A DNA stretch of 64,000 nucleotides, from NCBI GenBank assembly GCA_022709715.1, contig JAKLIH010000001.1:64225-128224 (forward strand), in the 5' to 3' direction. Origin of the DNA: Patescibacteria group bacterium. GTDB lineage: Bacteria > Patescibacteriota > Minisyncoccia > UBA6257 > JAKLIH01. The position numbers were made by a program, and so were the translations under genes. Positions 1-63,032 of this stretch are shown piece by piece. The notes beneath the pieces are model-generated. The model made no database searches. It saw only the letters and a program-made list of their open reading frames with translations, and was not told the DNA's origin. Within the stretch, counting starts at the first letter, position 1; each line of letters starts with the position of its first letter.

Positions 1-168
1 AGTACAAGACTTTGTGTTGTTAGGAGAAATATCTGGACAAGCACTAGGATTACCATTTTTATCAGCAATAGTTAAAGCGTTGGCTTGATTGTTATTAACA
101 AAAACCAAGGCGCTTAAAATTACGACCAAAACAATAAACAATTTTTGATAAATATTTAAATTTTTCAT
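1..168 (-). CDS. hypothetical secreted/membrane-anchored protein, N-terminal part only (ORF leaves the window)
   Basis: ATG at 166-168 on minus strand; MKNLNIYQKLFIVLVVILSALVF... signal-like hydrophobic segment; host-like AT-rich composition. Confidence 0.5.
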   Translation of the reverse strand, partial: MKNLNIYQKLFIVLVVILSALVFVNNNQANALTIADKNGNPSACPDISPNNTKSCT

Positions 169-230
169 ATTATTTTTTTGACTCTAAAAATTAAGTTTTA
201 GAGTTTTTATTAATTATTTTATTTATTAAG

Positions 231-259
231 ATTATATCATTTTTATACCTGTGTGTCAA
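231..259 (-). promoter_or_regulatory. sigma70-type promoter for the 1-168 gene
   Basis: minus strand TTGACA (254-259), 17-nt spacer, TATAAT (231-236) with TGn extension. Confidence 0.6.
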
Positions 260-342
260 TTGATAGTCAACAATGAGAAAAGTTGTTTTCGACTAAAAAC
301 AACTCAAATTAACTATCAAGACTATTAGTTTTATATACGTAT

Positions 343-392
343 ATTATACCATTTTTTATATCTTTTGTCAATACCGTCTGTGGATAACTTTT
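343..392 (-). promoter_or_regulatory. second promoter plus direct-repeat copy 1 (contains TTATCCACA 9-mer)
   Basis: minus strand TTGACA (366-371), 17 nt, TGgTATAAT (343-351). The 363-392 segment recurs at 3694-3724. TGTGGATAA on plus strand at 379-387. Confidence 0.55.
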
Positions 393-402
393 TAGCTTAG
401 TA

Positions 403-504
403 TTTTAAAGCATTCCAAAGAGCAATAAGTAAAAATCGTAACAATATCTGTTTGGAGAGAGAGATATTATCACTGATTTTTCTGCCCTTCGAAATGCTTT
501 AAAA
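403..504. repeat. palindrome h0 (12-bp arms TTTTAAAGCATT/AATGCTTTAAAA, about 78-nt interior)
   Basis: inverted repeat 403-414 / 493-504; occupies the position that h1-h3 occupy in the other cassettes. Confidence 0.5.
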
Positions 505-514
505 CACTAAAACT

Positions 515-657
515 CCATTTACTCAGCAAATTAAAATATTTAATATTTAATTTGCTGAGAGACGGAGGGGAGGAACACTCCCCATGTGGAGATTCAACTC
601 TTTGTCAATATTATCAATCTCCCGATAATACTGAAGAGACTCTGCTTTCTCATGGCT
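515..657 (-). ncRNA. conserved structured RNA module, copy 1 (3' of ORF 725-1168)
   Basis: About 90 percent identical to 2430-2566. Contains GGGGAG/CTCCCC hairpin (567-583), 14-bp CTCAGCAAATTAAA palindrome and an H-type pseudoknot (588-594/616-622 with 597-615/624-638). Substitutions are wobble-compatible only on the minus strand. Confidence 0.45.
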
Positions 658-724
658 CACGTGTGTTGGTTTTTATGTATAAAACCATTCCCGTGATACA
701 AAAAATTTACCTTTTTACTGGAGG

Positions 725-1168
725 TTATTCGTGAGGCACATCCTGTTTCCGAGGTCTATACCCATGACATTTGTTGCAACAAACACTAAGGACTTTGTAC
801 GTTCTATCTCGACCTAGAGAACAATGATTATTGACCGCACAACCGCACGTCAAATGCCGCGATTGTGATTCTATAATCTTCCACCCACGCTCCCAGTCTT
901 CTCTACATACTTCTTCCTCATTGCAATGCACTTGAGAAATATGCATTGCATACGATATCAGGGTTTCATCACGGATCAAAGAAATCCGTGAATCTTGATT
1001 CTTCTGCAAAACCTGATCACAAGTATAAATAATCGTACTCAGACTCGACCGATAGGAAGTTGCGCACTCTTCCTGTTCGGCCATTTCTGATAGATTACAT
1101 AACTGTTTAGCTACGTAATTCAACGTCTCTTGGTCCAGCTCCTGTGTTAAATCTAACTCTTTATCCAT
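725..1168 (-). CDS. hypothetical 147-aa protein, acidic N-half, Cys/His-rich C-terminus (CGC...C...CCNKCH)
   Basis: intact ORF, SD AAGGAAGGTG upstream, GC-rich, no TGA, TAA stop. Confidence 0.7.
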   Translation of the reverse strand: MDKELDLTQELDQETLNYVAKQLCNLSEMAEQEECATSYRSSLSTIIYTCDQVLQKNQDSRISLIRDETLISYAMHISQVHCNEEEVCREDWERGWKIIESQSRHLTCGCAVNNHCSLGRDRTYKVLSVCCNKCHGYRPRKQDVPHE

Positions 1169-1215
1169 TTTTTCACCTTCCTTGCCCTCATTAGGGGATT
1201 TGTAAATTTTTCTGC

Positions 1216-1267
1216 TTTTCAGCAGAGATTATTCTACTAGCAATAATAAAATAATCTCTGCTGAAAA
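1216..1267. repeat. palindrome h1 (perfect 18-bp arms TTTTCAGCAGAGATTATT, 16-nt loop)
   Basis: arms 1216-1233 / 1250-1267; lies between the conserved AATTGTTCTTTAAAA box and the SD of ORF 725-1168. Confidence 0.8.
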
Positions 1268-1270
1268 CTA

Positions 1271-1335
1271 TGTTTTAAAGAACAATTCCATTTACTCAGC
1301 AAATTAAAATATTTAATATTTAATTTGCTAAGAGA
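1271..1335 (-). promoter_or_regulatory. conserved inter-cassette box (AATTGTTCTTTAAAA plus CTCAGCAAATTAAA palindrome), copy 2
   Basis: near-identical to 500-560 and 2413-2470; possible TTGCTG-17-TTTAAA promoter on minus strand. Confidence 0.4.
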
Positions 1336-1460
1336 TGAAGAGATTTTTTAAAGAGAAATCTCGGAAAACTCTGTTTAACTTTATTTGATCTTGATTTATA
1401 TGGGAAACCAACAAAACCTCGGATCCTACGTTCTGAGTCACCGAATCTCAGTTGTTGGTC

Positions 1461-2240
1461 TTATAGAGATTTAGAAATCTCTTTAAAAACCTGGAGCGCG
1501 TCATCCTCTGAGAACTCAACCCCACGTGGAGTTGAGCAGGCCTTAGGGTGGCCTGCAAATTCGATGCCGGCGACTATCTTGCCGGCAAATGCGTATTGCG
1601 ATTTGGGATCGCAATATATAGAAACGGTTTTGTAGTGGTTACGATAAACCACTACGATCTTGACACCATCCTCATATGGACGAGATGGGTCAAGAGGATC
1701 TTGGGCTCCTATAGCCCAAAACCCCACCTTACCATCAACTGCCTTTCGGCAGTGAAAATAAGAATTTTCTGATTTTGTTTGGGCCTCACGGCCCATTTCA
1801 ATGATCTCTGTGTCAGGAACAGAGATCATTTCTTCCACAATAGCAGTAACGTCCTGCCATTGTTCTGCTGACACTCGCGGAAAATTTAATTTTCGCGCGA
1901 GCGCAGTGATCCCTACTGAGTAGCATAAGGTAGGATTGGTTTTAATGGGGCAGACGCTACTGCCTTTTAAGTCGATCTGCTCAAGAAGAGTAAGATCGAT
2001 ATTTGGCAGTGATTTACCTGCCAATCTCAAGATACCAACAAACGTGTCAGCATCAATGTGAGTGATCTCAACAGCTGCGTTGAGATCGCTGGCCTTTTGA
2101 ATTCGTCCGTCATTACACGGACTCGGGTTTTTGGAATATTGACCATGATGATCAAAATTCCTCACCCCATCATCCATCCCCGCTTCCAGAGAGAACACGC
2201 ATCCTCTACCGGATGCTTTTGACCATAATTGATATCTCAT
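1461..2240 (-). CDS. hypothetical 259-aa protein with His/Asp-rich motifs (NFDHHG, THIDADT); possible metal-dependent hydrolase
   Basis: intact ORF; 33/60 G+C counted at 1501-1560; SD AAAGGAGAAAAAAA; no TGA, TAA stop. Confidence 0.75.
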   Translation of the reverse strand: MRYQLWSKASGRGCVFSLEAGMDDGVRNFDHHGQYSKNPSPCNDGRIQKASDLNAAVEITHIDADTFVGILRLAGKSLPNIDLTLLEQIDLKGSSVCPIKTNPTLCYSVGITALARKLNFPRVSAEQWQDVTAIVEEMISVPDTEIIEMGREAQTKSENSYFHCRKAVDGKVGFWAIGAQDPLDPSRPYEDGVKIVVVYRNHYKTVSIYCDPKSQYAFAGKIVAGIEFAGHPKACSTPRGVEFSEDDALQVFKEISKSL

Positions 2241-2341
2241 TTTTTTCTCCTTTCAGAGAAATTTAAGAAACTTTTTAAAGTTTCTAATGAATTATAGTTC
2301 TTTAAGAATTGAAGGGTTTATCCCTACTATAATTCATACCA

Positions 2342-2403
2342 CTTTTCAGTAGCTAAGAAATAATTTTAGATTTTTTTAAAATTAAAACTTAGCTACTGAA
2401 AAG
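2342..2403. repeat. palindrome h2 (perfect 16-bp arms CTTTTCAGTAGCTAAG, 30-nt loop)
   Basis: arms 2342-2357 / 2388-2403; same position and same outer bases as h1 and h3, unrelated inner sequence. Confidence 0.8.
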
Positions 2404-2429
2404 ATGCTTTTTGTTTTTAAAGAACAATT

Positions 2430-2566
2430 CCATTTACTCAGCAAATTAAAATATTTAATTTGCTGAGAGATGGAGGGGAGGAACACTCCCCATATGAAGA
2501 TTTGACTCTTTATCAATATTATCAATCTCCCGATAATATTGAAGAGACTCTGCTTTCTCGCGGCTC
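2430..2566 (-). ncRNA. conserved structured RNA module, copy 2 (3' of ORF 2700-2999)
   Basis: aligns with 515-657 with only transition differences; lacks the 7-nt loop duplication of copy 1. Confidence 0.45.
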
Positions 2567-2699
2567 CAGTGTGACTTTTTGTTTTAAAACAGAAGTATCC
2601 CTGGATACGAAACTGTTTACCCATGCTTTAACCCCCGTGGATTTTAGGGGAACCTCAATTAAGAATAATTGGGGATAAAATATCTTCTAACGCATTGGT

Positions 2700-2999
2700 T
2701 TAATGCGTTTCAAGATATGACAATTCCTCCTCTTCTGTGGGTGTCCAATAACACCCACAAACATTACAGATGAATATCGAATGATCCATTGGATCATCCC
2801 TGTCGGATGGTGGGTAATACCCAAAATCCTTATGCCCTGTGTTTTTGCCACAGAGCTCTTGGAACTTCCGTTCCAAGACTTTTTTTTGCTGGAACATTTC
2901 GTCCCAGCTTTTTTTCTCTCTTTGAAGTCGCTCTTGCAACTCCAAATTTTCTTTTCTAAGTCCATCTATGACGGACTTTCTGATAATAATCCATCCCAT
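2700..2999 (-). CDS. hypothetical 99-aa protein (coiled-coil-like middle, C-terminal CNVCGC motif)
   Basis: ORF with SD AAGGAGAAAAAAA before ATG; preferred over the overlapping frame 2687-2965, which has no SD; no TGA, TAA stop. Confidence 0.6.
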   Translation of the reverse strand: MGWIIIRKSVIDGLRKENLELQERLQREKKSWDEMFQQKKVLERKFQELCGKNTGHKDFGYYPPSDRDDPMDHSIFICNVCGCYWTPTEEEELSYLETH

Positions 3000-3077
3000 T
3001 TTTTTCTCCTTGCCAATTTTTGAAAACTGGCAGCGTATATCTATTATTCCCGATATACAGGGAAATTTATTTTTGCT

Positions 3078-3126
3078 GTTTTCAGCATATAAAAGTTAAA
3101 AGATTTAACTGCTATATGCTGAAAAC
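3078..3126. repeat. palindrome h3 (perfect 14-bp arms GTTTTCAGCATATA)
   Basis: arms 3078-3091 / 3113-3126, followed by AATATTTTAAAGAACAATT box. Confidence 0.8.
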
Positions 3127-3528
3127 AATATTTTAAAGAACAATTTACATATTCGCTCACTGATACTAATGCTAATATAGTGGGCGATTAAAACTGGTTT
3201 TATTTAAAACCGGCTTTAATCGCCGACCAAAAAGGTGAGTTAATCCTTTTTTCGGCATAAATGTATATAGTTCCCTATAGACATTTAGGTGTGGCCTTGG
3301 TTTGAACAATCTTGTTCGCGAACCAAAGAAATACCGATTGTTTGATCGTCTGCTTCAAACAATATGAATATTTTTTTCCACTAGACGAAATTTTTGATTT
3401 AAAAATATTTGCGTTTCAACCAAAATAGATAGTAAACAAATAGGTTTTTGCTTGCGAGAGATTGCAAGGCATAAATTTTTAAATCAATAGTTTTTTAAAT
3501 GTACAAATAAAAAAACTAAAATATAATG

Positions 3529-3560
3529 AAAAACGGCTCTTTTTGGAGAGAACCGTTTTT
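3529..3560. terminator. bidirectional rho-independent terminator
   Basis: AAAAACGGCTCT-TTTTGG-AGAGAACCGTTTTT; A-run before and T-run after the stem. Confidence 0.6.
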
Positions 3561-3587
3561 ATATGAAAATTGATTAAAACATCGCTA

Positions 3588-3640
3588 TAGCTCTCTCCTT
3601 CTACAACTTTGTTTTATTGCCTATTAGCTCTCTCCTTCTA
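3588..3640 (-). repeat. two copies of TAGAAGGAGAGAGCTA (minus-strand reading), SD-like
   Basis: 16-nt direct repeat at 3588-3603 and 3625-3640. Confidence 0.6.
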
Positions 3641-3674
3641 ACAAGCAAATTGTTATTTTTAGTTTATAAAATCA

Positions 3675-3724
3675 GTATAACATATTGTTTCTGTTTTGTC
3701 AATACCCCTTTGTGGATAACTTTT
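3675..3724 (-). promoter_or_regulatory. promoter plus direct-repeat copy 2 (contains TTATCCACA 9-mer)
   Basis: minus strand TTGACA (3697-3702), 16 nt, TTATAC (3675-3680); 3694-3724 matches 363-392 (13+14 identical nt around a 3-4 nt variable core). Confidence 0.5.
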
Positions 3725-3792
3725 AAGAATACTGCAAATATAATAGTAAATATTGATTCAAATGTTTTGTTTGTTTATAGATTATAAAACTA

Positions 3793-5304
3793 TTAACCCA
3801 TTAAATGTTTATAATTTTTTAAAATGAAACTAATTGCCTCCTCTTTAGTTTTTAATTTTCCTTCTTTTTGTTTATTGTAAACACTGTTTAAAATCGTTTT
3901 GAAATGGGGCCCGGTTTTAAAACCAAGCTTAAGCAAATCTTTGCCTTCAATTAGTTTTTCCAGCTTATTATAAAAAACATCCATGGCTTTGGCTAATTTA
4001 ATCAGCTCTAATAATTTTTCAATGTTTAAAGCATTTAGCTGATTCAACGGTTGACGACCCATGTAGTCAGATTCAATGACCATGGACAGATCTTTAATGG
4101 TAGCTGGTTTTATTTTATCGGAAAGTTTTTTAACAAATTTTTCCGTAACAGTTTGAACTCCCACTAAAGCATCATGATTTTTTATTAATTGCAAAATGAT
4201 AGGAATATCTTTTAAAGGAAAATTAATTTGTCGTAAAAAACTTTTTGTAAACGAAGTTGATTCGCTAGCATGACCATAGGCAGTTATTTTTTCACCTTCA
4301 ATTTTTGTGGTGGTTACTTTGCCGAAATCGTGGCATAAAACGCTCAGCATTAAAATAAGTTGATCAGCTTGTGAAAGTTTTTCTCGATTACAAATTTTTT
4401 TAGCATGATCAAGTGACTGAGAGGTATGCTCAAAAACATCGCCCTCGGGATGATATTGTTTGGGCTGTTGAAGATTTATTAAGTTATAAATTTCCGGATG
4501 TAATTTTTCTAAGATCTTGAGTTCTTTAGCAATTTTTAATCCTAGACCTGGTTGATTTGATTTTAAAAGCATTTTAGTTCATTCTTCGCCAATGCGAGAT
4601 GCGCTCAAAAAACGTAAATCAATTTGTTGGCAAAGAGTTTTGGTTTTGGTGTCAATACTAAAACCCAAAATGGAAGCAAAACGCATAGCTCGCAAAACTC
4701 TTAATGGATCTTCAGAAAATTTCTTATTGTCAACGTGCTTTAATTTCTTTTCTAAAATATCTTTTAGACCACCGTGTTCATCAATGATTTCGCCTGTAAA
4801 TGGGTCTAGACCAAGAGCATTGCAAGTAAAATCGCGACGGGACGAAGCAATTTTAAAAGATAGCTTGGGATCAAACTTAGTTTTAAAGTCTGAATGTTTT
4901 TCACCAGTTTTTGAATCTTTGCGAGGTAAGGCAATATCAATGTTTGCACCAACTTTATATACACCAAAACTTTTACCAACTAAATTAGGAGTGGTACTTT
5001 CATCTTCAGATAGCGTTGATTCTAAAACATCAGGTTTAATATCATAGATCTCAATATCAATATCTTTAAAATCAACTTCGGATTTTTGTCCAAATTTTTT
5101 AAGAACTAGATCTCTAACAAAACCGCCAATTAAAATTGGTCGGCCATTTTGTTTTTTAATTAAAGCACAAATATCAAGAACTTTTTGCATGGTTTTTTTA
5201 TCGGGAACTGAGACGGTTTGATCAATTATTTCTTTGAGAGTTAAAACCGTTATTTTAGGCAAATTGGATTGCTTGGCAATTCTTTTTTGTTCTTTGATAA
5301 TCAT
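3793..5304 (-). CDS. cca: CCA-adding enzyme / poly(A) polymerase-family nucleotidyltransferase with HD domain
   Basis: ORFs 4579-5304 and 3793-4572 are in frame, joined by one TGA; GGFVRD, RRDFT and HD (HDFGK) motifs. Confidence 0.85.
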
Positions 5305-8333: not shown

Positions 8334-8952
8334 ATGTCGCAAAATATTCAGAAACAAAAGTGCGTGACACTTTATACAATGTCGCAAAATAATGCGTGAC
8401 AAGTGAAAATGTCACGCGCGTGACACTTTGACTACGTTTTCCGACTTTTAATATAAAAATTATTGCGAAATGTCACACGCGTGACAATTCAAAAGCAATC
8501 TCAAAGGTCAAATATCAAAACTCAAAAGTATAAGTCAAAGATCAAAAATTTTAATACTCAGCAAAACATAAATGATTTCAAAGTGTCACGCCTACCTACT
8601 GTCAGGCAGGCGCGTGACATTTTGATTATTAAATCGAATTTATGGTTTAAACTAATAATAATTTAGTTTGCAGATCAAAAATACATCCTTATTTTATATA
8701 AATTGAAATTTTAATATTTGCGAATTGTCACGCGCGTGACAATTCGCAATTTTTTGTTTTTTAATTACTAATTATTATTTGCCAATTACTCTTTAGTTTT
8801 TACCCCTTCCTTCATAAAGGATGGGGATTTTTAAGATTTGATTTATATTTTTGATTTTTGATTTTTGATTTAGTTGTTGAATTGTCACGCGCGTGACAAT
8901 TCAAAACCGATGTCGCAAAATATTCAGAAACAAAAGTGCGTGACACTTTATA
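8334..8952. mobile_element. 533-bp non-coding element flanked by perfect 43-nt direct repeats
   Basis: DR 8334-8376 = 8910-8952. The interior carries five TGTCACGCGCGTGACA-type palindromes (8410-8425, 8471-8486, 8584-8619 split by a 20-nt insert, 8720-8747, 8877-8904) and inverted TCAAAA modules. Confidence 0.5.
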
Positions 8953-15421: not shown

Positions 15422-17503
15422 ATGAAAACATTAGTGATTGTGGAAAGTCCAGCTAAAGCTAAAACAATTAATTCTTTTCTCGATAGCAAAAAATACAAAG
15501 TTATTGCTTCCATGGGGCATATTAGAAATTTACCTAAATCAACACTAGGTATTGACGTTGAAAAAGATTTTGAACCAAAATATATTGTGCCTAAAGATAA
15601 AATTAAATTTGTTAATGCTTTAAAAAAAGAAATAAAAGATTACGACAAAATTATTTTGGCATCAGATGAAGATCGAGAAGGTGAAGCCATTTCTTGGCAC
15701 TTAAAAGAGGCATTAAATATTGCTGATGATAAATATCAACGAATTGCTTTTCACGAAATTACACCGGAAGCTATAAACGAAGCTTTGAACAATCCTCGAG
15801 AGATTGATATGGATATGGTTTTGAGCCAACAAGCTCGTAGAATATTAGATAGATTGGTTGGCTATAAACTATCGCCATTCTTATGAAAAAAGATATTTAA
15901 AGGACTGTCCGCGGGTCGAGTTCAAACTCCAGCTTTACGTTTAATTGTGGAAAGAGAAAGAGAAATTGAAAAATTTAAATCCGAAGAATATTGAACAATT
16001 GATGCTCAATTTAAAAAAGATAAAAAAAGTTATATTGGTAATTTATTTAAAATTAATGATGAAGTTTTAGATAAATTTTATTTTAAAGATAGTAAAAAAG
16101 CCGAAGCCATAAAAACTAAATTAGAAAAACAAGATGTAAGTATAGATGAAATTAAAAAATCTTCAACCCTTAAAAAACCTTATCCACCATTTACAACCAG
16201 CACTCTTCAACAATCCGCTTATCAGGTTTATCGTTTTTCAGCCAAAAAAACTATGATGGTGGCTCAAAAATTATATGAAGGTATAAATATCGGTAAAAAA
16301 CAAATTGGTTTAATTACTTATATGAGAACTGATTCGTTAAATCTATCAATGGGATCAATTATGAATGCTCGAGATTTTATTCAAAAAAGTTTTGGCGAAA
16401 AATATATACCTAGCAAATTTAATATTTATAAAGCTAAATCGAAATTAGCTCAAGAAGCTCATGAGGCTATTAGAGTTACTGATGTTAATCGCACACCGGA
16501 AGATTTAAAAGAATTTTTAAGTAATGATGAATATAAATTGTATGATTTAATTTGAAAACGATTTGTGGCTTGCCAAATGGCAAACGCTATTATTGAAAAA
16601 GAAAGTATGATTACCAGTTGTAAGAATACTGATAATTATTATTTTAAAACTGATTTACAAATTATAAAATTTGATGGCTTTTTAAAAATTATGCCAATTT
16701 TAGATGCCGATCAAAGCTTGAGTTTAAAAGAAAACGATAAAGCGGAAATTGATGAAATAATACCTAAGCAACATTTTACTGAACCGCCAGCTAGATACAA
16801 CGATGCATCTTTAATAAAAACATTGGAAAAATATGGCATTGGTAGACCTTCAACCTATGCTTTAATTGTATCAATATTAATTGAACGAGGTTATGTTAAT
16901 TATAATGATGGTCATGCTTTTGTGCCAACCGATATTGGTTTAAAAACCAATGATATGTTAGTCGATAATTTTCAAGAGATAGCTGACTTTGAACTAACCA
17001 AAAAAATCGAAGATCAACTGGATGAAATTGCTGAAGAAAAAGTCAAATGAACAAAAGTGTTGGCTAATTTTTATGAACCATTTGATAAAAATTTACAGGA
17101 AAAATATGAAAAAATCACTAAACTGGATTTGACTAATAATGAAACGACCAATGAAGTATGTCCAGAATGTGGTGCAACTCTTGTAATTAAAATGAGCCGT
17201 TTTGGCAAATTTATGGCTTGTCCTAATTTTCCAAAATGTCGTTTTACTAAATCGATTAATGAATTAAATATTCCTTGTCCAAAATGTAAAACCGGTAATA
17301 TCGTTAGAAAGAGAACCAAACGAGGTAAGAGCGTTTATGGTTGTGATCAATATCCAAAATGTGATTTTATTGTTAACCAAAAGCCACTAAAAGATAAATG
17401 TCCAAAGTGCGGTTATCCATTAATCAATAAAAATAAAAAAATAAAAAAGTGTTCTAATAAAAATTGCGATTATGATACCAGCTCTGCAACCGATATACAA
17501 TAA
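15422..17503 (+). CDS. topA: DNA topoisomerase I
   Basis: five ORF pieces in one frame joined by TGA; TOPRIM N-terminus, [11 protein letters not shown]-terminal Cys4 zinc ribbons. Confidence 0.95.
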
Positions 17504-27907: not shown

Positions 27908-28536
27908 AAATTGTTTTTCTTAAGTAATTTAAAATCTTTTTCTGTAAGAGGTTTCTTATATAACTCATTTACTAATCAAAGCCCTCCTTTTTGGATTTTT
28001 TCTTTTGGAGAATAAATGCCAAGCCAATTTTTTGAAGGTCTACAATTGGTACAAAGAGAAATAGTTGAGATAAATTTTGATTCTAAATCTAATCTATCTT
28101 TTTTATTATCAACTTGAATAACCACAAAACTAAAATTATTTTGAATGTATTTTGAAACTTCTTTTTCAATTGATTTTTGTTTTTCAAGATCAATTAAATT
28201 TAAATACTTATCTCTGGAAAGCTTAGAAGTTAAATCTAATTCTCAATATTTAAGAAAAGGATCGTTTATTTTATTTAAAATAGCTCTGCCAATATTTTTT
28301 CTAAAAATGCTTCTGTCTTTATTTTCGGTTAAGAAATGCTGTTTTAATCTTGATCTTAATTGATTAATACCTGTGTGGGTACCAACACGAACAATACGAT
28401 TTGCCCCATGAGCTTTTTCGCTTTTTTCAAATAAAATATAGATTCCATTTAAAGGAATCTCTAATTCATTAAAGGGAAATTTAAAAGTTTTAAGGGTATT
28501 AGCTCATTTGTGAAGTTGACCACAATTATTTTTCAT
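27889..28536 (-). CDS. GIY-YIG domain nuclease-family protein
   Basis: Hand translation gives GIYILFE...RIVRVGTHTG...LRSRLKQH. Not in the ORF track because of 4 in-frame TGA. Overlaps both neighbours. Confidence 0.65.
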
Positions 28537-28948
28537 GGTTTATTTTATTTTTTAAATATTGCAGTTGTTTCCCAATACTTAAACCTTCTAGAGGAATACT
28601 GCAATTTTTAAATTCATTTATAAGGTACTTTCTATATTTAATGCCAGCTAAAAATATTATTTTATCTTTGTTAAAGTCAATTTTTCTTTTCATTTGTTTT
28701 TTGACTTTTCCTGCCCAAACTTTAATTTCATTATTTTTCATCGTATTTAGAGTTTTGTTATATGTTTCTATTTGTTGGTTTAGATTAACTAAACCATATT
28801 TAGCCGAAAGAATAAAGATTTTATTAGGTTTAAATGTCTTGGCAAATATTAAATTAAGCTTGAATAGTGGACTGATATATAAATCCTTGGCTTTAGCTTT
28901 ATGATTTAATTTTTTACTAGCACAGGAAATCAAAACAATTTTGTTCAT
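28526..28948 (-). CDS. hypothetical protein (SCASKK ... ILSAKYGL motif, DUF6884-like from memory)
   Basis: intact ORF; overlaps the GIY-YIG gene start by 11 nt. Confidence 0.6.
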   Translation of the reverse strand: MNKIVLISCASKKLNHKAKAKDLYISPLFKLNLIFAKTFKPNKIFILSAKYGLVNLNQQIETYNKTLNTMKNNEIKVWAGKVKKQMKRKIDFNKDKIIFLAGIKYRKYLINEFKNCSIPLEGLSIGKQLQYLKNKINHEK

Positions 28949-29103
28949 AAATTTTATAATTAATTAGTGGAGAGGGAAGAATGTTGAAGAAATATTTAAG
29001 CGACAAATCAAATATATCTACATCCCAAATTTAAGTCCTTAAACTTAGTTTTATTATATCAAATTTTATTCCACCATTCAATTCACTATATTGTTTTTGA
29101 AGT

Positions 29104-29142
29104 AATAAAAACGAGTGTGTGCAGATTGCTCCACACACACCC
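29104..29142 (-). terminator. terminator of the 517-aa ORF
   Basis: minus strand GTGTGTGGAG-CAAT-CTGCACACAC then TCGTTTTTATT. Confidence 0.6.
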
Positions 29143-29162
29143 TTTGAGTTTGAATACGAGGT

Positions 29163-30716
29163 TTACTTATTGTAGTGATCGTTGTGCGGACCACTGACAA
29201 CCTCAACCTCATCGAAGGAGAGCTCTCGGTTAATGAGGACTACGGGCTGTTCATATCCGCCCTTGTACTCGCTAATCGGAACGATCGTACGACCTCTTGC
29301 GCGAGTGAAATCGGCAATCTCGGCGTTGGTAAACTGATCCCGACCCTTCTCCATTGCATCGCCGAGCTCCTTGCGTCGCTTTTCGTACTGCGCATGATCG
29401 GCGATGTAGATGTCGTTTGCTCGATTGGGTTTTATTCGGATCACGAAACGCTCGTTGCCTGACCATCGGTAATAGCCTGGCACTTCGAGCGAATTGACGG
29501 TCATTTCGGCTGTCACTTCACCAATACCACACCAGAGAAAGCCTTCGTAGGCGATCTTCGGCAAAGTGCCATCATCAGACACACCGAGCGAAACAAGACG
29601 ATGGCCGTTGCCCAACAGACCATAACGATCTGCCGGTTCGAGCTTCTCTGCATCATTCTTGCCCTGCTTGATTCGTTCCGCTTCGTCATAATCGCCGAAG
29701 CAGAAAAGTTGTCCGATGGACTCAGGAAAAGGAATCGGTTGCGGCGGAATGAACATGTCGATCTTTTCTGTTGGGATCGGACATAACATAATCGCTTGAA
29801 GTATGACATCGCGCAGGTATTGCTCGAACTCCCCCATAACCCCTGCAGTTGCGAAGAATTTTGGTTCGTCGCCCTCAGGATCATACTGGCGGCCCAAATC
29901 GTTTGTGTGAACCAAACACGGTGATCGACGACCCCGATGTGTGTGAGCCATTCGAGCTAACTCCTTAGTATCATCCATGAACATGGCGTTCAGGAAACCG
30001 ACGCCTTCAAAAGTGGCTCCTGCCGCTGCCTGACAGTTACATTCGCCCTTGTACTTGAGAAACATCTTCGGTTCGCCGTTAAGCTTACAGTTGACCTTCG
30101 AGCTATTCATGAACTTTTTGCGATCTCGCTTATAGTCGTTGCCAACATAGAGATAGAAAGTTGGCCCCGATTCGTCTTGATAGACGTGAAGCTCCTTCTT
30201 CGGAATCACAAGTTCGGTTACAGCTGCCGTGTCATTCCAGTGACCACCAGGTATGGTACGCTGCACTCGGCAAAACCAGAGTTTAAAATCCTGACCGCTG
30301 ATCTGTGAGACGAAACGGAACTTCTGAGCTCCACTTCCATACTTATAGAATTCAACGATGATGCCCGGCACCTGCCAGTTGCGCTTTTCGAGCTCACGAA
30401 CAATCTGCTCGCAAGTCGAATCAAACGGAAATTGTTGTACACTCGGATAGAGAAATTGTACCTGATTGCTCTTTTCTGCTTGCTCGTCAGACGGTCTAAA
30501 AAACCGTCCAATTTTTGCACGCCACCCAGCGCACTTTTTCTGAAGTTCCCCAAGCAATACAACACTGCCTTGTTCTGGCCACTCCTTCTCTCTCCAAACT
30601 GTGGGATCGAGTGAGAATGTCACCGAACCTTCAATTTGGTCTGAAGTTGCGACCGCGAAGGGGCCATGTTTGCCCTTAGGCACCACTTTCTGAACTACTG
30701 CTTTTAAATCATTCAA
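29163..30716 (-). CDS. orphan 517-aa protein, no domain recognised
   Basis: 1.55-kb uninterrupted ORF; 34/60 G+C counted at 29581-29640; TTG start 7 nt after AAGGAGG; 8 Trp all TGG; TAA stop. Confidence 0.8.
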   Translation of the reverse strand: MNDLKAVVQKVVPKGKHGPFAVATSDQIEGSVTFSLDPTVWREKEWPEQGSVVLLGELQKKCAGWRAKIGRFFRPSDEQAEKSNQVQFLYPSVQQFPFDSTCEQIVRELEKRNWQVPGIIVEFYKYGSGAQKFRFVSQISGQDFKLWFCRVQRTIPGGHWNDTAAVTELVIPKKELHVYQDESGPTFYLYVGNDYKRDRKKFMNSSKVNCKLNGEPKMFLKYKGECNCQAAAGATFEGVGFLNAMFMDDTKELARMAHTHRGRRSPCLVHTNDLGRQYDPEGDEPKFFATAGVMGEFEQYLRDVILQAIMLCPIPTEKIDMFIPPQPIPFPESIGQLFCFGDYDEAERIKQGKNDAEKLEPADRYGLLGNGHRLVSLGVSDDGTLPKIAYEGFLWCGIGEVTAEMTVNSLEVPGYYRWSGNERFVIRIKPNRANDIYIADHAQYEKRRKELGDAMEKGRDQFTNAEIADFTRARGRTIVPISEYKGGYEQPVVLINRELSFDEVEVVSGPHNDHYNK

Positions 30717-30804
30717 TTTATTTCCTCCTTCTTTCTTTTTTAATTTTAAGAATGTACACTACGCTCTCCGTAGTAGAGATTATCACCCATTGTGACGATA
30801 CTTA

Positions 30805-30872
30805 ATTATAACATTTTTAATATAAAATGTCAATGTTGCGCATCAAGTATGCTAAAATCTAGACGAAATATT
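30805..30872. promoter_or_regulatory. shared bidirectional promoter module, copy Y
   Basis: minus strand perfect TTGACA (30828-30833)-17-TATAAT (30805-30810); plus strand TGcTAAAAT within 30842-30872. Confidence 0.65.
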
Positions 30873-31043
30873 AATCAGAACGGTACCTGGTACCGTTCTG
30901 ATTAAAGCAAAGGTTAAGTCACATTTTTAAAACCATAACAGGTTCGGAATCAAGTTCCGAACCTGTTATGGTTTGATCACAACGCTGCCTGGCAGTGTTA
31001 TATTATAAATTGTTATTTTTTAATAATTTAATATTTCGTCTAT
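30873..31043. repeat. three perfect hairpins enclosed by a 13-bp long-range stem
   Basis: TAGACGAAATATT (30870-30883 approx) pairs with AATATTTCGTCTA (31030-31043 approx). Inner stems AATCAGAACGGTACC, AACCATAACAGGTTCGGAA (about 19 bp) and AACGCTGCC/GGCAGTGTT. Confidence 0.6.
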
Positions 31044-31421
31044 TCACCCGAGTCTTAATCATAAAACTATTTCGTCATAACATGCTACATCTTTAGAAGG
31101 CATATTAGCAAGTATTAATTTTATATTTTTTCCATAAACTAATTTTTGAGCTAACCCAAAGCATAACTCTGCAAAAGTTTCTGCGCCTATATAACCATTG
31201 ATTTTACCTCTTTTATTGTTGGCAATAAATAAAACATCTGTTTTAAGTATATTTTTAAAAAAGTTTTTATGAACATCTGGATATAATTCGTCAAAATTTT
31301 CTTTAGGAATAATTAAAGGGTAATCTAAAACCAAATAACCATATTTGTTATTTCAATATCGTATTCATTCTTGTATTTCATTTTGAAGTTCTGCACTTCC
31401 AGCTATTACTACTTTTATCAT
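31020..31421 (-). CDS. nucleoside 2-deoxyribosyltransferase-like protein (putative)
   Basis: MIKVVIAGS... pattern; ORF 31059-31334 extended at both ends through TGA codons. Confidence 0.4.
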
Positions 31422-31454
31422 ATTTGAAACCAAACATTTGATTATTTTTATGAG

Positions 31455-31542
31455 CGGAGGGTGTGAGATTCGAACTCACGGGCCGCTTTTAAGACAGCCA
31501 CGGTTTAGCAAACCGTTCCTTTAACCACTCAGGCAACCCTCC
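31455..31542 (-). tRNA. tRNA-Ser (anticodon GCT)
   Basis: 88 nt, long variable arm, anticodon loop TTGCTAA. Confidence 0.9.
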
Positions 31543-31629
31543 TTTTATATGAAAATCTTATCATAAAAAGTTGCAAAAAACAAGGTAATATATTAAACTG
31601 TAGGTGTAATATTAAACAATAGAAACAAT

Positions 31630-32931
31630 ATGAAAACAGATTTCGTAAAAATGCTAAAAAACAAAAAAGTTTTAATTTGAAGTTTAGGGCTACATGGCGG
31701 TGGTATTGGCGCTACCAAGTTTTTTGCCAAGAACCAAGCTAAAGTTTTGGTAACCGATCTAAAAGACGCAAAAGCTTTAAAACCATCAATCCAAAAATTA
31801 AAAAATTATAAAAATATTGTTTATCGTTTGGGGTTACATGATAAAAATGATTTTAAAAACAATGATTTGATTGTAATTAATCCAGCTGTGAAACCAACTA
31901 GCGAATTTTATAAATTAGCAATCAAAAACAAACAGAAATTAATCACCGATATGGGTTTTCTGTTTGAAAATACTAAAGCTTTAATTGTTGGCATCACTGG
32001 CACCAAAGGAAAATCCACAACTACAAAATTAATCTACGATTTAATAACGTATGAAATCAAAAAGAAAAAACACCCATTGTTTAAAAAATATAATAAGGTA
32101 TATTTAGGTGGAAATATTCGAGTATCCCCATTTGATTTTATGGATAAATTAGACGAAAAGAGCGTAGTGGTGCTAGAAATGTCAAGTTTTCAACTATATC
32201 ATACTAAATATGCTAAAAAGAGTCCGAATATATCAATTGTTACAAATATCATGCCCGAGCATTTAGATTGACATAAAGATTTTGAAGATTATCAAAGATC
32301 AAAATGTTTAATTTTTAAATACCAGAAAAAGGATGATATTTTAATTATTAACAAAAATTTGAAAAAATTAGTTGGTAAAAACAATAAAAAGGTTTACTAC
32401 ACCAATGGTAATAACGAAGACAACATTTATCAATTTGCCAAAGCTTTAAATATTGATAAAGAAGACGTTATAAAAATTATTAAAGATTTTAAAGGCCTGG
32501 AAGGTCGTCAAGAAATTGTGGCAAAAGTAAACAATCGAATTTTTATCAATGATACTTGTGCAACTCATCCAGTGGCCAATTTATATATGTTAAAATCATT
32601 TGAAAATCCTATTGTTATATGAGGTGGAGTGGACAAGGGGTTTGATATTAAAAAGCTTGCTAAAGAATTTATGAACAGAAATATTAGATTGTTTATTTTT
32701 AAGGGCAGTGCGGGTGAAAAAATGCTCAAAATTCTTAAAAAAGATTATGCTAAGAAATATGTAACTAGTAATATCCAAACCATGAATGATGCCGTTGAAA
32801 TGGCTTATAAAATAAGCAAGAGTGGCGATATTATTGTTTTATCACCGGGAGCATCAAGCTTTAATATGTTTTTGAATGAATTTGACCGAGGCAAAAAGTT
32901 TATTAAAGCGATTAAAAGTTTGACAAAATAA
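31630..32931 (+). CDS. murD: UDP-N-acetylmuramoylalanine--D-glutamate ligase
   Basis: four pieces in one frame via TGA; GLHGGG, GITGTKGKSTT P-loop, MPEHLD motif. Confidence 0.9.
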
Positions 32932-33787: not shown

Positions 33788-33790
33788 CTA

Positions 33791-34160
33791 ACAATTAAAT
33801 CAAATCTCAAAAGTCAAAAGTCAAATCTGAAAATCAAAAATTTAAAAATATAAATATATTTAATCATAAAACAATGATAGTCGCTCATAACCTTTACTGG
33901 GTGTGGGGGCTAGCCCCGCTTCGCCTGCCTACCGGCAGGCAGGCTCCACGACTAACCAAAGGTTAGTGTGGGGGCTGGCCCACAATTAAATCAAAAATTA
34001 AAGATAAAAAAGAGATGTAAATGGTAAATGGTAATTAGTAATATAAAGAGTAATACAATTGTAAGACGATTGTAAAGAGTAAGAAGTAAATAGTAAGCAG
34101 TAAATCAATCAATAGACGGTTATTAATTACTATTTTCTACTTACTAATTACGCATTTATT
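33791..34160. repeat. tRNA-trailer repeat block (A-tract module, CCACAC hairpins, GTAA-phased module)
   Basis: 50-nt unit 33791-33840 recurs at 34468-34517 and 34608-34657; GCCTGCC hairpin at about 33925-33946. Confidence 0.8.
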
Positions 34161-34173
34161 GCCGAGGTGGTGA
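34161..34173 (+). pseudogene. 13-nt fragment identical to the 5' end of tRNA-Leu
   Basis: GCCGAGGTGGTGA matches 34383-34395. Confidence 0.5.
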
Positions 34174-34304
34174 CCCGACAACCTATTAACTTTAATTTTG
34201 GGTCAATTTGCTTTAGTTGTTAGATAACACTCTCGTGCAATAATATGTTCTTTAAATATTGCTAATATTGGCAAAATTATTCAAAAATTGATAAATCAAT
34301 TTTT

Positions 34305-34382
34305 ACAAAGTTTCTAGGTGTCTGGGTAGTCATTTGGAACATTAATTTGTTTTAGATAGCTCAGCCCTATAATATTCTTTAT
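34305..34382 (+). promoter_or_regulatory. 78-nt conserved tRNA-Leu upstream block, copy 1 (includes TATAAT at 34368-34373)
   Basis: 3 mismatches versus 62955-63032. Confidence 0.7.
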
Positions 34383-34467
34383 GCCGAGGTGGTGAAATTG
34401 GTAGACACGCAAGTTTTAGGAGCTTGTGCTTTACAGCATGCGAGTTCGAGTCTCGCCCTCGGCACCA
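34383..34467 (+). tRNA. tRNA-Leu (anticodon TAG), CCA encoded
   Basis: long variable arm; anticodon loop TTTAGGA; 3' GGCACCA. Confidence 0.9.
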
Positions 34468-34934
34468 ACAATTAAATCAAATCTCAAAAGTCAAAAGTCA
34501 AATCTGAAAATCAAAAATGTAAAAATTGAAAAACAAAATTAAAAAATAGAAATATATTTAAATACTAACCACTCAAAAACTTTTCTGAGTGTGGGGGCTA
34601 GCCCCCAACAAATAAATCAAATCTCAAAAGTCAAAAGTCAAATCTGAAAATCAAAACTTTTTAAATGAAATACCGATAAAAAACTCAAAACTCAAATCTC
34701 AAAAGTCAAATCCATAAATCAAAGATCAAATATCAAAACCCCCCCTTCTTTAAAACTCAAGCGTTTTTCAAACGCAGAGATTTAAAAGAGTTTGTAAAGA
34801 AGGAGATAAAGCCCCCTCTTTTAAAATCGCAATATTTTTGCAAAACAAAAATATTTAATACAAAAGCGATTTCTAAAGAAGGTGGTAAAAGAAAAATAAA
34901 AAGTGATTAGTAGATAACTACTAATCACTTTTTT
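34468..34934. repeat. A-tract modules, CCCTCTTTTAAAA palindrome modules and a bidirectional terminator (34898-34934)
   Basis: modules homologous to 22140-22320. Confidence 0.8.
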
Positions 34935-62809: not shown

Positions 62810-62954
62810 ATTCATTTAAAAAAGATTTGGTAAACAAATCTTTTTTAAATGTTGAAATTTCGAAATAAACATGGTAAAATGAACAAATGTGTAATTGGTA
62901 AATAGAAAATAGTAATTAGAAAAACAATGGTAAAGCAATTGTAAGATAATGCAA

Positions 62955-63032
62955 ACAAAGTTTCTAGGTGTCTGGGTAGTCATTTGGAACATTAATTTGT
63001 TTTAGATAGCTCAGTCTTATAATACTCTTTAT
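62955..63032 (+). promoter_or_regulatory. 78-nt conserved tRNA-Leu upstream block, copy 2
   Basis: see 34305-34382. Confidence 0.7.

What the first reader, a model, noticed from the sequence alone, without database searches (positions are those of the whole stretch)
515..657. Conserved pseudoknotted RNA module 3' of two cassette ORFs (second copy 2430-2566)
About 140 nt downstream of ORFs 725-1168 and 2700-2999 are roughly 90 percent identical, while the ORFs themselves are unrelated. The segment folds into a GGGGAG/CTCCCC hairpin, a 14-bp CTCAGCAAATTAAA palindrome and an H-type pseudoknot. In copy 1 the pseudoknot pairs 588-594 with 616-622 and 597-615 with 624-638. The differences I see between the copies are transitions. 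Three of them fall in paired positions and stay as G-U or A-U pairs only if the RNA is read from the minus strand, the sense of the ORFs. These are 589/2497, 623-624/2531-2532 and the CTCAGC/GCTAAG arm in the partial copy at 1288-1335. On the plus strand the same changes give A x C mismatches. The plus-strand ORFs predicted here (552-734, 2460-2678) differ mostly by non-synonymous changes.
Basis: seen in the sequence. Interest (0 to 1): 0.7.

Follow-up and report, generated by a model that had tools for sequence, protein, structure and literature searches.

The report
Hairpin end-module of mobile gene cassettes
The repeated ~140-nt hairpin-rich segment is real, and it looks like the non-coding end-piece of small swappable gene cassettes in an uncultured bacterium that reads TGA as tryptophan, resembling integron cassette sites but lacking their defining sequence features, so it may mark an undescribed gene-capture system.

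Summary
The repeat is real. Windows 511-665 and 2426-2573 are about 91% identical behind unrelated ORFs, and 1284-1365 is a partial copy. Nothing else in 64 kb matches.

It is non-coding and matches no Rfam family. Read in ORF sense (minus strand) it forms three hairpins: hpM, hp1 and a two-tier terminal hairpin.

Context changes the reading. The module sits in a 3.3-kb array of promoterless, same-strand ORFs. These ORFs are compositionally foreign: GC 0.41-0.50 against a host mean of 0.30, and 0 TGA against 12 TGG in a host that uses TGA for Trp.

Every ORF unit is bounded the same way: TTGTTCTTTAAAA core, 5' hairpin hp3, ORF, terminal hairpin, 3-4 nt, next core.
- The terminal hairpin keeps its geometry through compensatory changes in seven elements.
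- Strains differ by two whole cassettes, with divergence starting just after an hp3.
- A related species has an empty site.
- An 11-nt core (GTTCTTTAAAA) recurs in an unrelated CPR array.

Canonical attC boxes are absent and no recombinase was seen in the window.

Best reading (0.45): the module is an integron-like but non-canonical cassette end, in its full form an ORF-less mini-cassette. A purely RNA role (3'-UTR stabiliser) remains possible (0.3). The pseudoknot is sterically feasible but untestable with two copies.

The parts
511..665 (-). Module copy 1, downstream of the 147-aa ORF. It is the last element of the array. In ORF sense it reads hpM, hp1, then the terminal hairpin.
   Evidence: 91% identical to 2426-2573. 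Fold z-score -5.3.
2426..2573 (-). Module copy 2, downstream of the 99-aa ORF. It is preceded by a degenerate core-like sequence, TGTTTTAAAACAAAAAG.
   Evidence: Fold z-score -5.7.
1284..1365 (-). Partial copy, downstream of the 259-aa ORF. It has the terminal hairpin only and is preceded by a degenerate core, ATTTCTCTTTAAAA (1346-1359).
   Evidence: D13 (93% identity). (core with 2 mismatches at 1346-1359)..
498..572 (-). Terminal (RE) hairpin of copy 1. Outer stem CCGT/ATGG, internal loop of 2 nt and 3 nt, 14-bp inner stem. It is followed by AGTT and then non-array sequence, so this is the array end.
   Evidence: Model R1, 76.9 bits. Pair counts. DNA fold z-score -7.4.
1271..1345 (-). Terminal (RE) hairpin of the partial copy, followed by AATT and then the core.
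   Evidence: Model R1, 82.3 bits..
2413..2480 (-). Terminal (RE) hairpin of copy 2, followed by AATT and then the core.
   Evidence: Model R1, 87.9 bits..
567..583 (-). hp1, GGGGAG/CTCCCC, a 6-bp hairpin with a 5-nt loop. The second copy is at 2475-2491.
   Evidence: Analogous G/C-rich hairpins with other sequences occur in L014 (GGAAGG/CCTTCC) and L142.
598..638 (-). hpM. Arms 605-615 and 624-634 (11 bp), loop 616-623, plus the outer pairing CTCT/AGAG. The second copy is at 2506-2546. Its foot, TCTTCAG, resembles the hp3 foot TTTTCAG.
588..594 (-). The 7-mer complementary to the hpM loop, which is the claimed pseudoknot stem. The second copy is at 2496-2502 and carries one C>T change that gives a G-U pair.
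   Evidence: Read. The difference at 589/2497 is. Not testable further.
1273..1286 (-). Junction core, TTGTTCTTTAAAA in ORF sense, between the 259-aa and 147-aa cassettes. Identical cores lie at 2415-2428 and 3131-3144.
   Evidence: Three exact matches. Invariant in all five aligned junctions. The motif GTTCYTTAMA occurs at the cassette junctions on the ORF-sense strand, plus once on the plus strand at 34247.
1216..1267 (-). hp3C, the 5' hairpin of the 147-aa cassette. The foot TTTTCAG/CTGAAAA is conserved and the interior varies. hp3B is at 2342-2403 and hp3A at 3077-3127.
   Evidence: (I4-I6). Compensatory changes in L014 (TTTCCAG/CTGGAAA) and in L142. Folds.
725..1168 (-). Cassette ORF of 147 aa, function unknown. 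The other cassette ORFs are 1461-2240 (259 aa) and 2700-2999 (99 aa).
   Evidence: GC 0.41-0.46 and no TGA codons.
397..510 (-). Inverted repeat at the array end (arms 397-424 and 483-510). The distal arm overlaps sequence that aligns with the empty site of a related species.
   Evidence: I3. Alignment with L146.
3529..3702 (-). Promoter P1 (3702 to 3674), a short leader, and an intrinsic terminator (3560 to 3529), upstream of the array in ORF sense. P1 is the only consensus promoter that faces the array.

Best explanation
The 140-nt module is the structured, non-coding end-piece of small mobile gene cassettes. It is not a free-standing RNA gene.

GRAMMAR (shown). The 3.3-kb region 390-3700 is an array on the minus strand. 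Each unit reads: core GTTCTTTAAAA, 5-12 nt, 5' hairpin hp3, ribosome-binding site, ORF, an optional G/C-rich hairpin hp1, then a two-tier terminal hairpin. That hairpin has a 4-5-bp outer stem, a 2-nt/3-nt internal loop and a 9-16-bp A/T-rich inner stem. It is followed by 3-4 nt ending in T, and then the next core.

THE MODULE (inferred). The full module carries an hp3-like hairpin (hpM), hp1 and the terminal hairpin behind a degenerate core. It therefore looks like a complete cassette without cargo. This would explain why near-identical copies follow unrelated ORFs.

MECHANISM (inferred).
- Cassettes are joined and exchanged by site-specific recombination at or next to the core.
- The flanking hairpins, folded from the ORF-sense single strand, act as the recognition structures. 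This is analogous to integron attC sites or to the hairpin ends of IS200/IS605-type elements.
- The enzyme is encoded elsewhere in the genome.
- Because the array is promoterless and lies behind promoter P1, the same hairpins are also present in the mRNA and may protect it.
For: 1. GRAMMAR. The core TTGTTCTTTAAAA is invariant at all five aligned junctions. In the window, 3 of the 4 GTTCYTTAMA matches lie at cassette junctions on the ORF-sense strand.

2. TERMINAL HAIRPIN. Across seven elements from three contigs, 97.7% of cells are paired against 86% in shuffles and at most 55% when slid. Seven pairs change on both sides, and 0 of 500 shuffles reach the score. I read the loop sizes and the spacing to GTTC as constant from the alignment.

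3. hp3. Compensatory changes are seen: TTTTCAG/CTGAAAA becomes TTTCCAG/CTGGAAA in L014. Two compensated pairs occur in L142, with a T.G intermediate in strains L141 and L006.

4. STRAIN POLYMORPHISM. Four independent contigs (L004, L005, L013, L014) match the window up to the edge of hp3C. They then carry two extra cassettes (143 aa and 72 aa), each with its own hairpins and core, before a second hp3C.

5. EMPTY SITE. In a related species (CCA enzyme 63% identical) the CCA gene is followed about 260 nt later by the secreted-protein gene, with no array.

6. FOREIGN CARGO. Cassette ORFs have GC 0.41-0.50 against a host mean of 0.30. They have 0 TGA and 12 TGG codons, where host genes have 91 TGA and 43 TGG. 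My calculation gives a chance of 0.32^12, about 1e-6. No function is found in Pfam, PHROGs or PADLOC.

7. NO INTERNAL PROMOTER. No consensus promoter lies inside the array, whereas host promoters are perfect consensus. The hairpins have no T tail.

8. SAME CORE ELSEWHERE. A 58%-identical homologue of the 259-aa protein lies in an array in another CPR MAG (L143). There, hp1-like and terminal-like hairpins precede GTTCCTTACAA, GTTCTTTACAA or GTTCTTTAAAA, followed by a long 5' hairpin and the ORF.

9. CONFINED TO THE ARRAY. The element occurs nowhere else in 64 kb.
Against: - No recombinase or transposase gene was recognised in the 64-kb window. This rests on my reading of translations and only partial Pfam coverage. 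None appears in the flanks listed with the related contigs.
- Canonical attC boxes are absent.
- The strain polymorphism could equally arise by RecA-mediated deletion between the two near-identical 75-nt hp3C repeats.
- No circular junction or second insertion site has been seen.
- Only two lineages with this grammar were found. Both large pattern scans returned only chance hits.
- The ORF-proximal 80 nt of the module (hpM and the putative pseudoknot) is explained only by analogy with hp3.
- With DNA parameters the two strands fold equally well. The wobble asymmetry therefore fits an RNA role at least as well.
Confidence: 0.45

Rival explanations
1. Purely RNA-level element. The three stem-loops, with or without the loop-linker pseudoknot, sit in the 3' UTR or intercistronic part of a polycistronic mRNA made from P1. 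They act as barriers to 3' exonucleases or as processing and insulation signals, as REP or ERIC repeats do. Their spread behind different ORFs is a by-product of duplication and recombination.
For: - One-sided substitutions in stems give G-U on the ORF-sense strand: 589, 631, 563, 1330, 2350 and the outer stem of the partial copy.
- With RNA parameters the sense strand is more stable than the antisense strand in 9 of 10 hairpin sequences. With DNA parameters there is no difference.
- The array has no internal promoter, and the hairpins lack T tails, so they would be transcribed through.
- The 7-bp loop-linker complementarity is kept in both copies.
Against: - This does not explain the invariant 13-nt core, its fixed 3-4-nt spacing from the hairpin, or its recurrence in an unrelated CPR array.
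- It does not explain cassette presence/absence at the core and hp3 or the foreign, TGA-free cargo.
- All six wobble-creating changes are C>T or A>G on the sense strand. A deamination bias of the exposed strand predicts this without selection.
- No Rfam family matches.
- No transcript data are available.
Confidence: 0.3
2. Selfish miniature repeat (MITE- or PATE-like), or simply a remnant of a local duplication, with no function for the host. The hairpins are the ends of a non-autonomous element.
For: - The copies have no ORF.
- There are 2.5 copies at 91-93% identity.
- The loop gains and loses a 7-nt unit among strains.
- The module has both an hp3-like hairpin and a terminal hairpin.
Against: - The copies are confined to one 3-kb array and always lie in the same orientation and register with the core.
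- No target-site duplication or terminal inverted repeats are seen.
- Other cassettes carry differently sequenced hairpins of the same geometry, which argues for selection on structure.
Confidence: 0.12
3. The segment encodes small proteins. Candidates are the plus-strand ORFs 552-734 and 2460-2678, or a minus-strand peptide once TGA is read as Trp.
For: Gene callers in public assemblies did call the 72-aa ORF.
Against: - The ORFs have no homologue other than themselves in 5.8 billion proteins and no Pfam match.
- In each of the three reading frames I translated by hand, the differences between the copies are mostly or entirely non-synonymous (from the differences listed).
- The 7-nt indel shifts the frame.
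- The minus-frame ORF lacks a shared start codon.
Confidence: 0.03
4. The palindromes are double-stranded DNA binding sites (operators) for a dimeric regulator.
For: The palindromes are perfect and lie in intergenic DNA.
Against: At least three distinct inner-stem sequences keep complementarity rather than sequence. The asymmetric 2/3-nt internal loop and the outer stem make sense only for a folded single strand.
Confidence: 0.05

Closest known systems
Integron attC sites, especially the species-specific repeats of sedentary chromosomal integrons (such as the Vibrio cholerae repeats, VCRs) and integrase-less attC clusters (CALINs)
   Same: - An array of promoterless, same-orientation ORFs of unknown function. 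Each is followed by a 60-150-nt imperfect palindrome kept by structure rather than sequence.
- Repeats are near-identical within one array behind unrelated ORFs.
- ORF-less cassettes occur.
- Cassette content varies between strains.
- A promoter lies upstream of the array.
- No integrase lies next to the array, as in CALINs.
   Different: - No RYYYAAC...GTTRRRY boxes occur on either strand.
- The element is three local hairpins rather than one long R/L-box hairpin.
- Cassettes also carry a conserved 5' end of about 80 nt (core plus hp3), which integron cassettes lack.
- The conserved core GTTCTTTAAAA lies outside the hairpin, 3-4 nt downstream.
- The host is a CPR-like bacterium that reads TGA as Trp.
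IS200/IS605-family ends and their cargo-less derivatives (PATEs), moved as single strands by HUH Y1 transposases
   Same: - Hairpins lie near both ends on the same strand.
- The 3' hairpin lies at a fixed short distance from the element end.
- There are no terminal inverted repeats and no target duplication.
- Cargo-less mini elements exist.
- If the origin lies near 8-10 kb, the active-looking strand would be the lagging-strand template. This is my inference from the GC skew.
   Different: - No TnpA or TnpB gene was found.
- The conserved 13-nt core is much longer than the 4-5-nt target or cleavage motifs of that family.
- Tandem head-to-tail arrays of cargo genes are not typical of the family.
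- The guide/cleavage-site pairing could not be tested.
REP/BIME, ERIC and similar transcribed intergenic stem-loop repeats that stabilise upstream mRNA
   Same: These are stable stem-loops without a U tract, lying 3' of ORFs in transcribed DNA. They are repeated, and G-U pairs are tolerated on the sense strand.
   Different: Those repeats are dispersed genome-wide. This one is confined to a single variable array, sits in register with a conserved junction core, and is linked to foreign cargo.
H-type RNA pseudoknots (for example, an IBV-type knot with an 11-bp stem 1)
   Same: Stem and loop lengths in ORF sense are compatible with such a knot: S1 11 bp, L1 1 nt, S2 7 bp, L3 10 nt.
   Different: There is no slippery site and no ORF in register, since the stop codon lies about 90 nt upstream. 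There is no covariation, and a competing extension of stem 1 uses the same bases.

Membership tests
Integron / CALIN (attC cassette array) | attC sites with R'' (RYYYAAC) and R' (GTTRRRY) boxes 50-160 nt apart | tested here: not met
   A regex scan of 300-3700 on both strands found 0 R''/R' pairs. The conserved triplet context here is GTTCTTT, and it lies outside the hairpin.
Integron / CALIN (attC cassette array) | Imperfect palindromes conserved in structure, not sequence, separating same-strand promoterless ORFs | tested here: met
   Covariation of the terminal hairpin. hp3 compensatory changes. No internal consensus promoter.
Integron / CALIN (attC cassette array) | An intI tyrosine recombinase with an attI site next to the array (complete integron) | tested here: not met
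   None was recognised in the 64-kb window (translations, read by eye; Pfam was run only on the ORFs next to the array). None appears in the flanks of the contigs.
Integron / CALIN (attC cassette array) | Cassettes gained or lost as units at the boundary sites | tested here: met
   Two extra cassettes are present in L004, L005, L013 and L014, with divergence starting at the edge of hp3C. A related species has an empty site. Homologous recombination is not excluded.
Integron / CALIN (attC cassette array) | A hit to the attC covariance model (IntegronFinder or HattCI) | not testable with these tools
   The model is not in Rfam and not available here.
IS200/IS605 ends / PATE | A Y1 HUH transposase (TnpA) in the element or in the genome | tested here: inconclusive
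   None was seen in the window.
IS200/IS605 ends / PATE | Subterminal hairpins at both ends on one strand, with cleavage sites at fixed offsets | tested here: inconclusive
   The 3' hairpin lies 3-4 nt from the core in every RE element that is followed by a core. The 5' hairpin lies 14-22 nt after the G of the core. The cleavage points themselves are unknown.
Intrinsic (Rho-independent) terminator | A G+C-rich stem directly followed by a T run | tested here: not met
   The terminator scan reports none of the module hairpins on the minus strand. It does find the host-type terminator at 3560-3529.
Any Rfam RNA family | A score at or above the family gathering threshold | tested here: not met
   Only tRNAs pass the threshold in the window. 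The permissive scan of 150-3800 gives only sub-threshold miRNA-hairpin noise on hp3.
H-type pseudoknot RNA | Both stems supported by covariation or by probing | tested here: inconclusive
   Only two copies exist. There is one transition in S2 (C-G to U-G) and one in S1 (A-U to G-U). Strains show no variation there. The MFE fold competes for the loop bases.
Dispersed MITE/REP-type repeat | Many copies scattered over the genome | tested here: not met
   Three sites in the window, all inside the array. The translated module finds no other copy in the protein collection.

The most novel reading that the evidence does not exclude
This is a previously undescribed, non-integron gene-cassette system of CPR-like bacteria.
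- Small cargo units are bounded by a conserved 5' end (GTTCTTTAAAA plus the hp3 hairpin) and a two-tier 3' hairpin.
- They are joined head-to-tail at a core of about 13 nt, whose 11-nt centre (GTTCTTTAAAA) recurs in an unrelated CPR lineage.
- They are exchanged by a hairpin-recognising enzyme encoded elsewhere in the genome.
- They carry TGA-free foreign genes into a host that reads TGA as Trp, so the cassettes remain readable under both genetic codes.
- The 140-nt module would be the cargo-less form of such a cassette.
Probability: 0.3. Interest if true: 0.8.

Novelty: new variant of a known kind. Interest (0 to 1): 0.55.

Why it matters
Integrons are the only well-understood platform that captures single promoterless genes at structured single-strand sites. 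My literature searches found no report of one in CPR/Patescibacteria.

Suppose the grammar seen here (core, 5' hairpin, two-tier 3' hairpin) marks a working capture system.
- It would give a second, mechanistically distinct example of cassette capture.
- It would show how tiny, host-dependent bacteria with a recoded stop codon still import genes. The cargo avoids TGA altogether.
- It would provide a searchable signature for finding such arrays in metagenomes.

Suppose instead the hairpins are only mRNA stabilisers. The finding is then a local curiosity of one uncultured species.

Tried and rejected
1. GENOME-COLLECTION SCAN with TTGTTCTTTAAAAN{4,14}TTTYCAG. It returned 120 single chance hits. 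None had a closing hairpin.

2. METAGENOME SCAN with AAATGGRATTGTTCTTTAAAA. It returned four chance hits in coding DNA. The collection apparently does not hold this organism's array.

3. TWO VIRAL-CONTIG SCANS found nothing.

4. TRANSLATED MODULE AS A HANDLE for finding more copies in 5.8 billion proteins. It found only itself.

5. CONTEXTS OF SIX HOMOLOGUES OF THE 259-AA PROTEIN.
- Two show the same grammar (L142, L143).
- Two are phage contigs (L148, L149).
- Two are ordinary chromosomal contexts without the grammar (L145, L147).

6. CANONICAL attC BOXES: none.

7. CODE 25 (TGA = Gly) was my first assumption and is rejected. All four TGA codons in TopA align with conserved Trp.

8. STERIC ARGUMENT AGAINST THE PSEUDOKNOT. 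I first argued this from the plus-strand order, then withdrew it. In ORF sense the loop lengths are acceptable.

9. CRUDE UNION COUNT OF G.T AGAINST A.C PAIRS over all predicted pairs. It gave no clear asymmetry (about 27 against 24), because peripheral and internal-loop pairs swamp it. Only substitutions inside covariation-supported helices are informative.

11. LITERATURE SEARCHES for integrons or cassette arrays in CPR/Gracilibacteria, and for TGA = Trp in Patescibacteria, turned up nothing relevant.
Full report
**1. The observation**

The repeat is real. Windows 542-665 and 2450-2573 are 91% identical over 124 ungapped nt (D8). With a 7-nt indel in a hairpin loop, the repeat runs 511-665 / 2426-2573. 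A third, partial copy (1284-1340) is 93% identical to 511-567 (D13).

The ORFs upstream of the two full copies are unrelated (147 aa and 99 aa; BLASTP E = 58).

Between the full copies I count 10 transitions, 2 transversions at the ORF-proximal edge, and the indel. Nothing differs at 623-624; the real difference in that stem is at 631/2539.

The segment matches no Rfam family. Its plus-strand ORFs have no Pfam match. In 5.8 billion proteins they find only themselves. In each reading frame I translated by hand, the differences between the copies are mostly or entirely non-synonymous.

**2. The host**

The window is 100% identical over the 6.3 kb compared to NCBI MAG GCA_035453665.1 and to several anaerobic-digester contigs.

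Many table-11 ORFs fuse when TGA is read through. All four in-frame TGA codons of topoisomerase I align with conserved Trp in solved TopA structures. The organism therefore reads TGA as Trp, with 91 TGA against 43 TGG codons in long ORFs.

The organism has cell-wall genes (seen by eye). Its CCA enzyme is nearest to CPR lineages, but only at 41-44% identity. A single closer relative exists at 63%.

**3. Structure of the module**

In ORF sense (minus strand) the module folds into three hairpins:
- **hpM**: an 11-bp stem, 605-615/624-634.
- **hp1**: GGGGAG/CTCCCC.
- **Terminal hairpin**: a 14-bp A/T-rich inner stem, a 2-nt/3-nt internal loop, and a 4-bp outer stem CCRT/ATGG.

Both strands fold far better than shuffles (z -5.3 to -8.3), as any inverted repeat does.

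The claimed pseudoknot is the hpM loop GGGAGAUU pairing with AAUCUCC 10 nt downstream. In this orientation it is sterically acceptable. Three points weigh against relying on it:
- It rests on two sequences, with one C>U change.
- The MFE fold competes with it by extending hpM around a GAGA loop.
- It has no counterpart in the analogous hairpins of other cassettes.

**4. The context: a cassette array**

Reading the minus strand from 3145 to 500, every inter-ORF region has the same grammar:
- terminal hairpin;
- 3-4 nt ending in T;
- invariant core TTGTTCTTTAAAA (three exact copies);
- 5-12 nt;
- a 50-60-nt hairpin, hp3, with a conserved foot TTTTCAG/CTGAAAA and a variable interior;
- ribosome-binding site and ORF.

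Aligning five junctions from the window and from a strain variant shows the core and the hp3 foot invariant, while everything else changes.

A covariance model of the terminal hairpin finds only the three array sites in the 64-kb window, at 77-88 bits. The next best hit scores 22 bits.

**5. Structure is selected, not sequence**

Seven terminal hairpins from the window, L014 and L142 use at least three different inner-stem sequences and two outer-stem versions (CCAT/ATGG and CCTAT/ATAGG).
- 97.7% of cells are paired, against 86% after shuffling and at most 55% when partners are slid.
- Seven pairs change on both sides.
- No shuffle of 500 reaches the observed score.

hp3 shows the same behaviour.
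- TTTTCAG/CTGAAAA becomes TTTCCAG/CTGGAAA in L014.
- hp3B of a 78%-identical homologue of the 259-aa cassette (L142) has two compensated pairs.
- Strains L141 and L006 carry a T.G intermediate of one of these pairs.

**6. Evidence for mobility**

- **Strain variants.** Four independent contigs match the window up to the edge of hp3C. They then carry two additional cassettes (143 aa and 72 aa) with their own hairpins and cores, followed by a second hp3C.
- **Empty site.** In the only close relative found, the CCA gene is followed about 260 nt later by the secreted-protein gene. In the window that gene lies beyond the array. The DnaA-box/promoter segment is duplicated on both sides of the array.
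- **Foreign cargo.** The cargo ORFs have GC 0.41-0.50 against a host mean of 0.30. They contain 12 TGG and no TGA codon. By my calculation this would happen by chance about once in a million given host usage.
- **No known function.** Pfam, PHROGs and PADLOC give none.
- **Homologues are themselves mobile.** Homologues of the 259-aa protein occur in phage contigs and on Clostridium botulinum plasmids.
- **The same core in another lineage.** One homologue lies in an array in another CPR MAG (L143). The repeats there are different, but the order of parts is the same and the core is nearly the same: GTTCCTTACAA, GTTCTTTACAA, and once GTTCTTTAAAA exactly.

**7. What the module itself is**

Both full copies are preceded by a degenerate core-like sequence: TGTTTTAAAACAAAAAG before copy 2, and a more diverged version before copy 1. 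hpM has an hp3-like foot (TCTTCAG).

I therefore read the module as a cassette that has both ends but no cargo. The partial copy is an even shorter one, behind the degenerate core ATTTCTCTTTAAAA. This is inference. It would explain near-identical copies behind unrelated ORFs, much as ORF-less cassettes and VCR-type repeats do in chromosomal integrons.

**8. Mechanism and its limits**

No consensus promoter lies inside the array. Host promoters are perfect TTGACA-17-TATAAT, and one of these, P1, faces the array from 3702. It is followed by a short leader and a terminator. The module hairpins have no T tail, so they are not terminators.

I commit to a DNA-level role, with confidence 0.45. Cassettes are joined at or beside the core, and the hairpins of the ORF-sense single strand act as recognition structures.

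Three points count against membership in the integron family:
- There are no R''/R' boxes.
- No integrase was seen in the window or the flanks.
- Cassettes carry a conserved 5' end that integron cassettes lack.

The two-ended hairpin design also recalls IS200/IS605-type single-strand elements, but no HUH gene was seen.

The polymorphism could also come from homologous recombination between the repeated hp3C copies.

**9. RNA versus DNA**

All six informative one-sided changes in supported helices give G-U on the sense strand. Sense-strand RNA folds are more stable than antisense folds in 9 of 10 hairpin sequences. With DNA parameters the strands are equal. This favours an RNA contribution.

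However, all six changes are C>T or A>G on the sense strand. A deamination bias of the exposed strand predicts exactly that pattern. A crude count over all predicted pairs shows no asymmetry.

The RNA-only reading (3'-UTR or intercistronic stabiliser) therefore stays a serious rival at 0.3. The two roles are not exclusive.

**10. Verdict**

- **Observation**: confirmed.
- **Interpretation**: partly supported. The element is structured and reads on the sense strand. RNA is plausible. The pseudoknot is unproven.
- **What it most likely is**: an integron-like but non-canonical cassette boundary in an uncultured bacterium that reads TGA as Trp.
- **Novelty**: a new variant of a known kind.
- **Chance that it marks a distinct capture system**: about 0.3.

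Noticed in passing
window 15422-17503 (+), and genome-wide: TGA is read as Trp (code 4), not as stop and not as Gly. All four in-frame TGA codons of TopA align with conserved W in PDB TopA structures. Long ORFs hold 91 TGA against 43 TGG codons. This is unusual for a walled, CPR-like bacterium. NCBI labels the MAG 'Candidatus Paceibacterota bacterium'.
   Followed up: partly
window 725-1168, 1461-2240, 2700-2999; L014 11585-12016 and 12455-12673; L142 226-993: All cassette ORFs are GC-rich (0.41-0.50 against a host mean of 0.30). They contain no TGA codon, with 12 TGG instead, so they are readable under both the standard and the host genetic code.
   Followed up: yes
window 3529-3702 (-): A consensus promoter (3702 to 3674) is followed by a leader of about 110 nt. 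The leader holds two copies of AGAAGGAGAGAGCTA (3639-3625 and 3602-3588), which could pair with the 5' arm of the terminator at 3560-3529. This looks like an attenuator, riboswitch-like leader or small RNA in front of the array. No Rfam match.
   Followed up: no
window 343-387 and 3674-3719: A perfect DnaA box (TTATCCACA) plus a consensus promoter is duplicated on both sides of the array. The related species L146 has a single copy.
   Followed up: partly
window 8400-8920: Four copies of the palindrome GAATTGTCACGCGCGTGACAATTC (D16) lie where gene orientation switches and the cumulative GC skew reaches its minimum. This may be an origin region or a set of operators.
   Followed up: no
window 45823-49593 (+): GyrA is 1256 aa once TGA is read through. 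It appears to carry an intein inserted right after the catalytic RY motif (...AAAQRY|CVTGDS...VNHN|TECRM). I saw this by eye in the translation.
   Followed up: no
window 33789-34733, 38126-38345, 40229-40381, 56788-57168, 62904-62955: Several other dispersed non-coding repeat families occur (D1-D7, D12):
- a 50-nt A-rich repeat after tRNA genes;
- 11-nt periodic GTAAAnCAnTG arrays;
- the hairpin CCCCCACACTAACCTTTGGTTAGTGTGGGGG, in 7 copies.
   Followed up: no
window 34163-34185 and 34247: A 5' fragment of tRNA-Leu is duplicated 220 nt upstream of the intact gene (34383-34467). A core-like GTTCTTTAAATATTG lies between them. This may be the scar of an integration event.
   Followed up: no
window 28000-32000; ORF 29163-30716 (-): A GC-rich patch (0.36) holds a TGA-free 517-aa ORF of GC 0.50 for which I ran no family search. 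It is probably another foreign insertion.
   Followed up: no
L143 4500-12000 (GCA_030698385.1): A second cassette-like array in another CPR MAG. It has 61-nt and 197-nt boundary repeats, includes a Csx3-domain ORF, and has the same GTTCYTTAMAA core between a terminal hairpin and a long 5' hairpin.
   Followed up: partly
window 1461-2240 (-): NCBI labels the 259-aa cassette protein family 'teicoplanin resistance protein VanZ', but it has no Pfam support. The family is widespread in CPR MAGs, phage contigs and Clostridium botulinum plasmids.
   Followed up: partly
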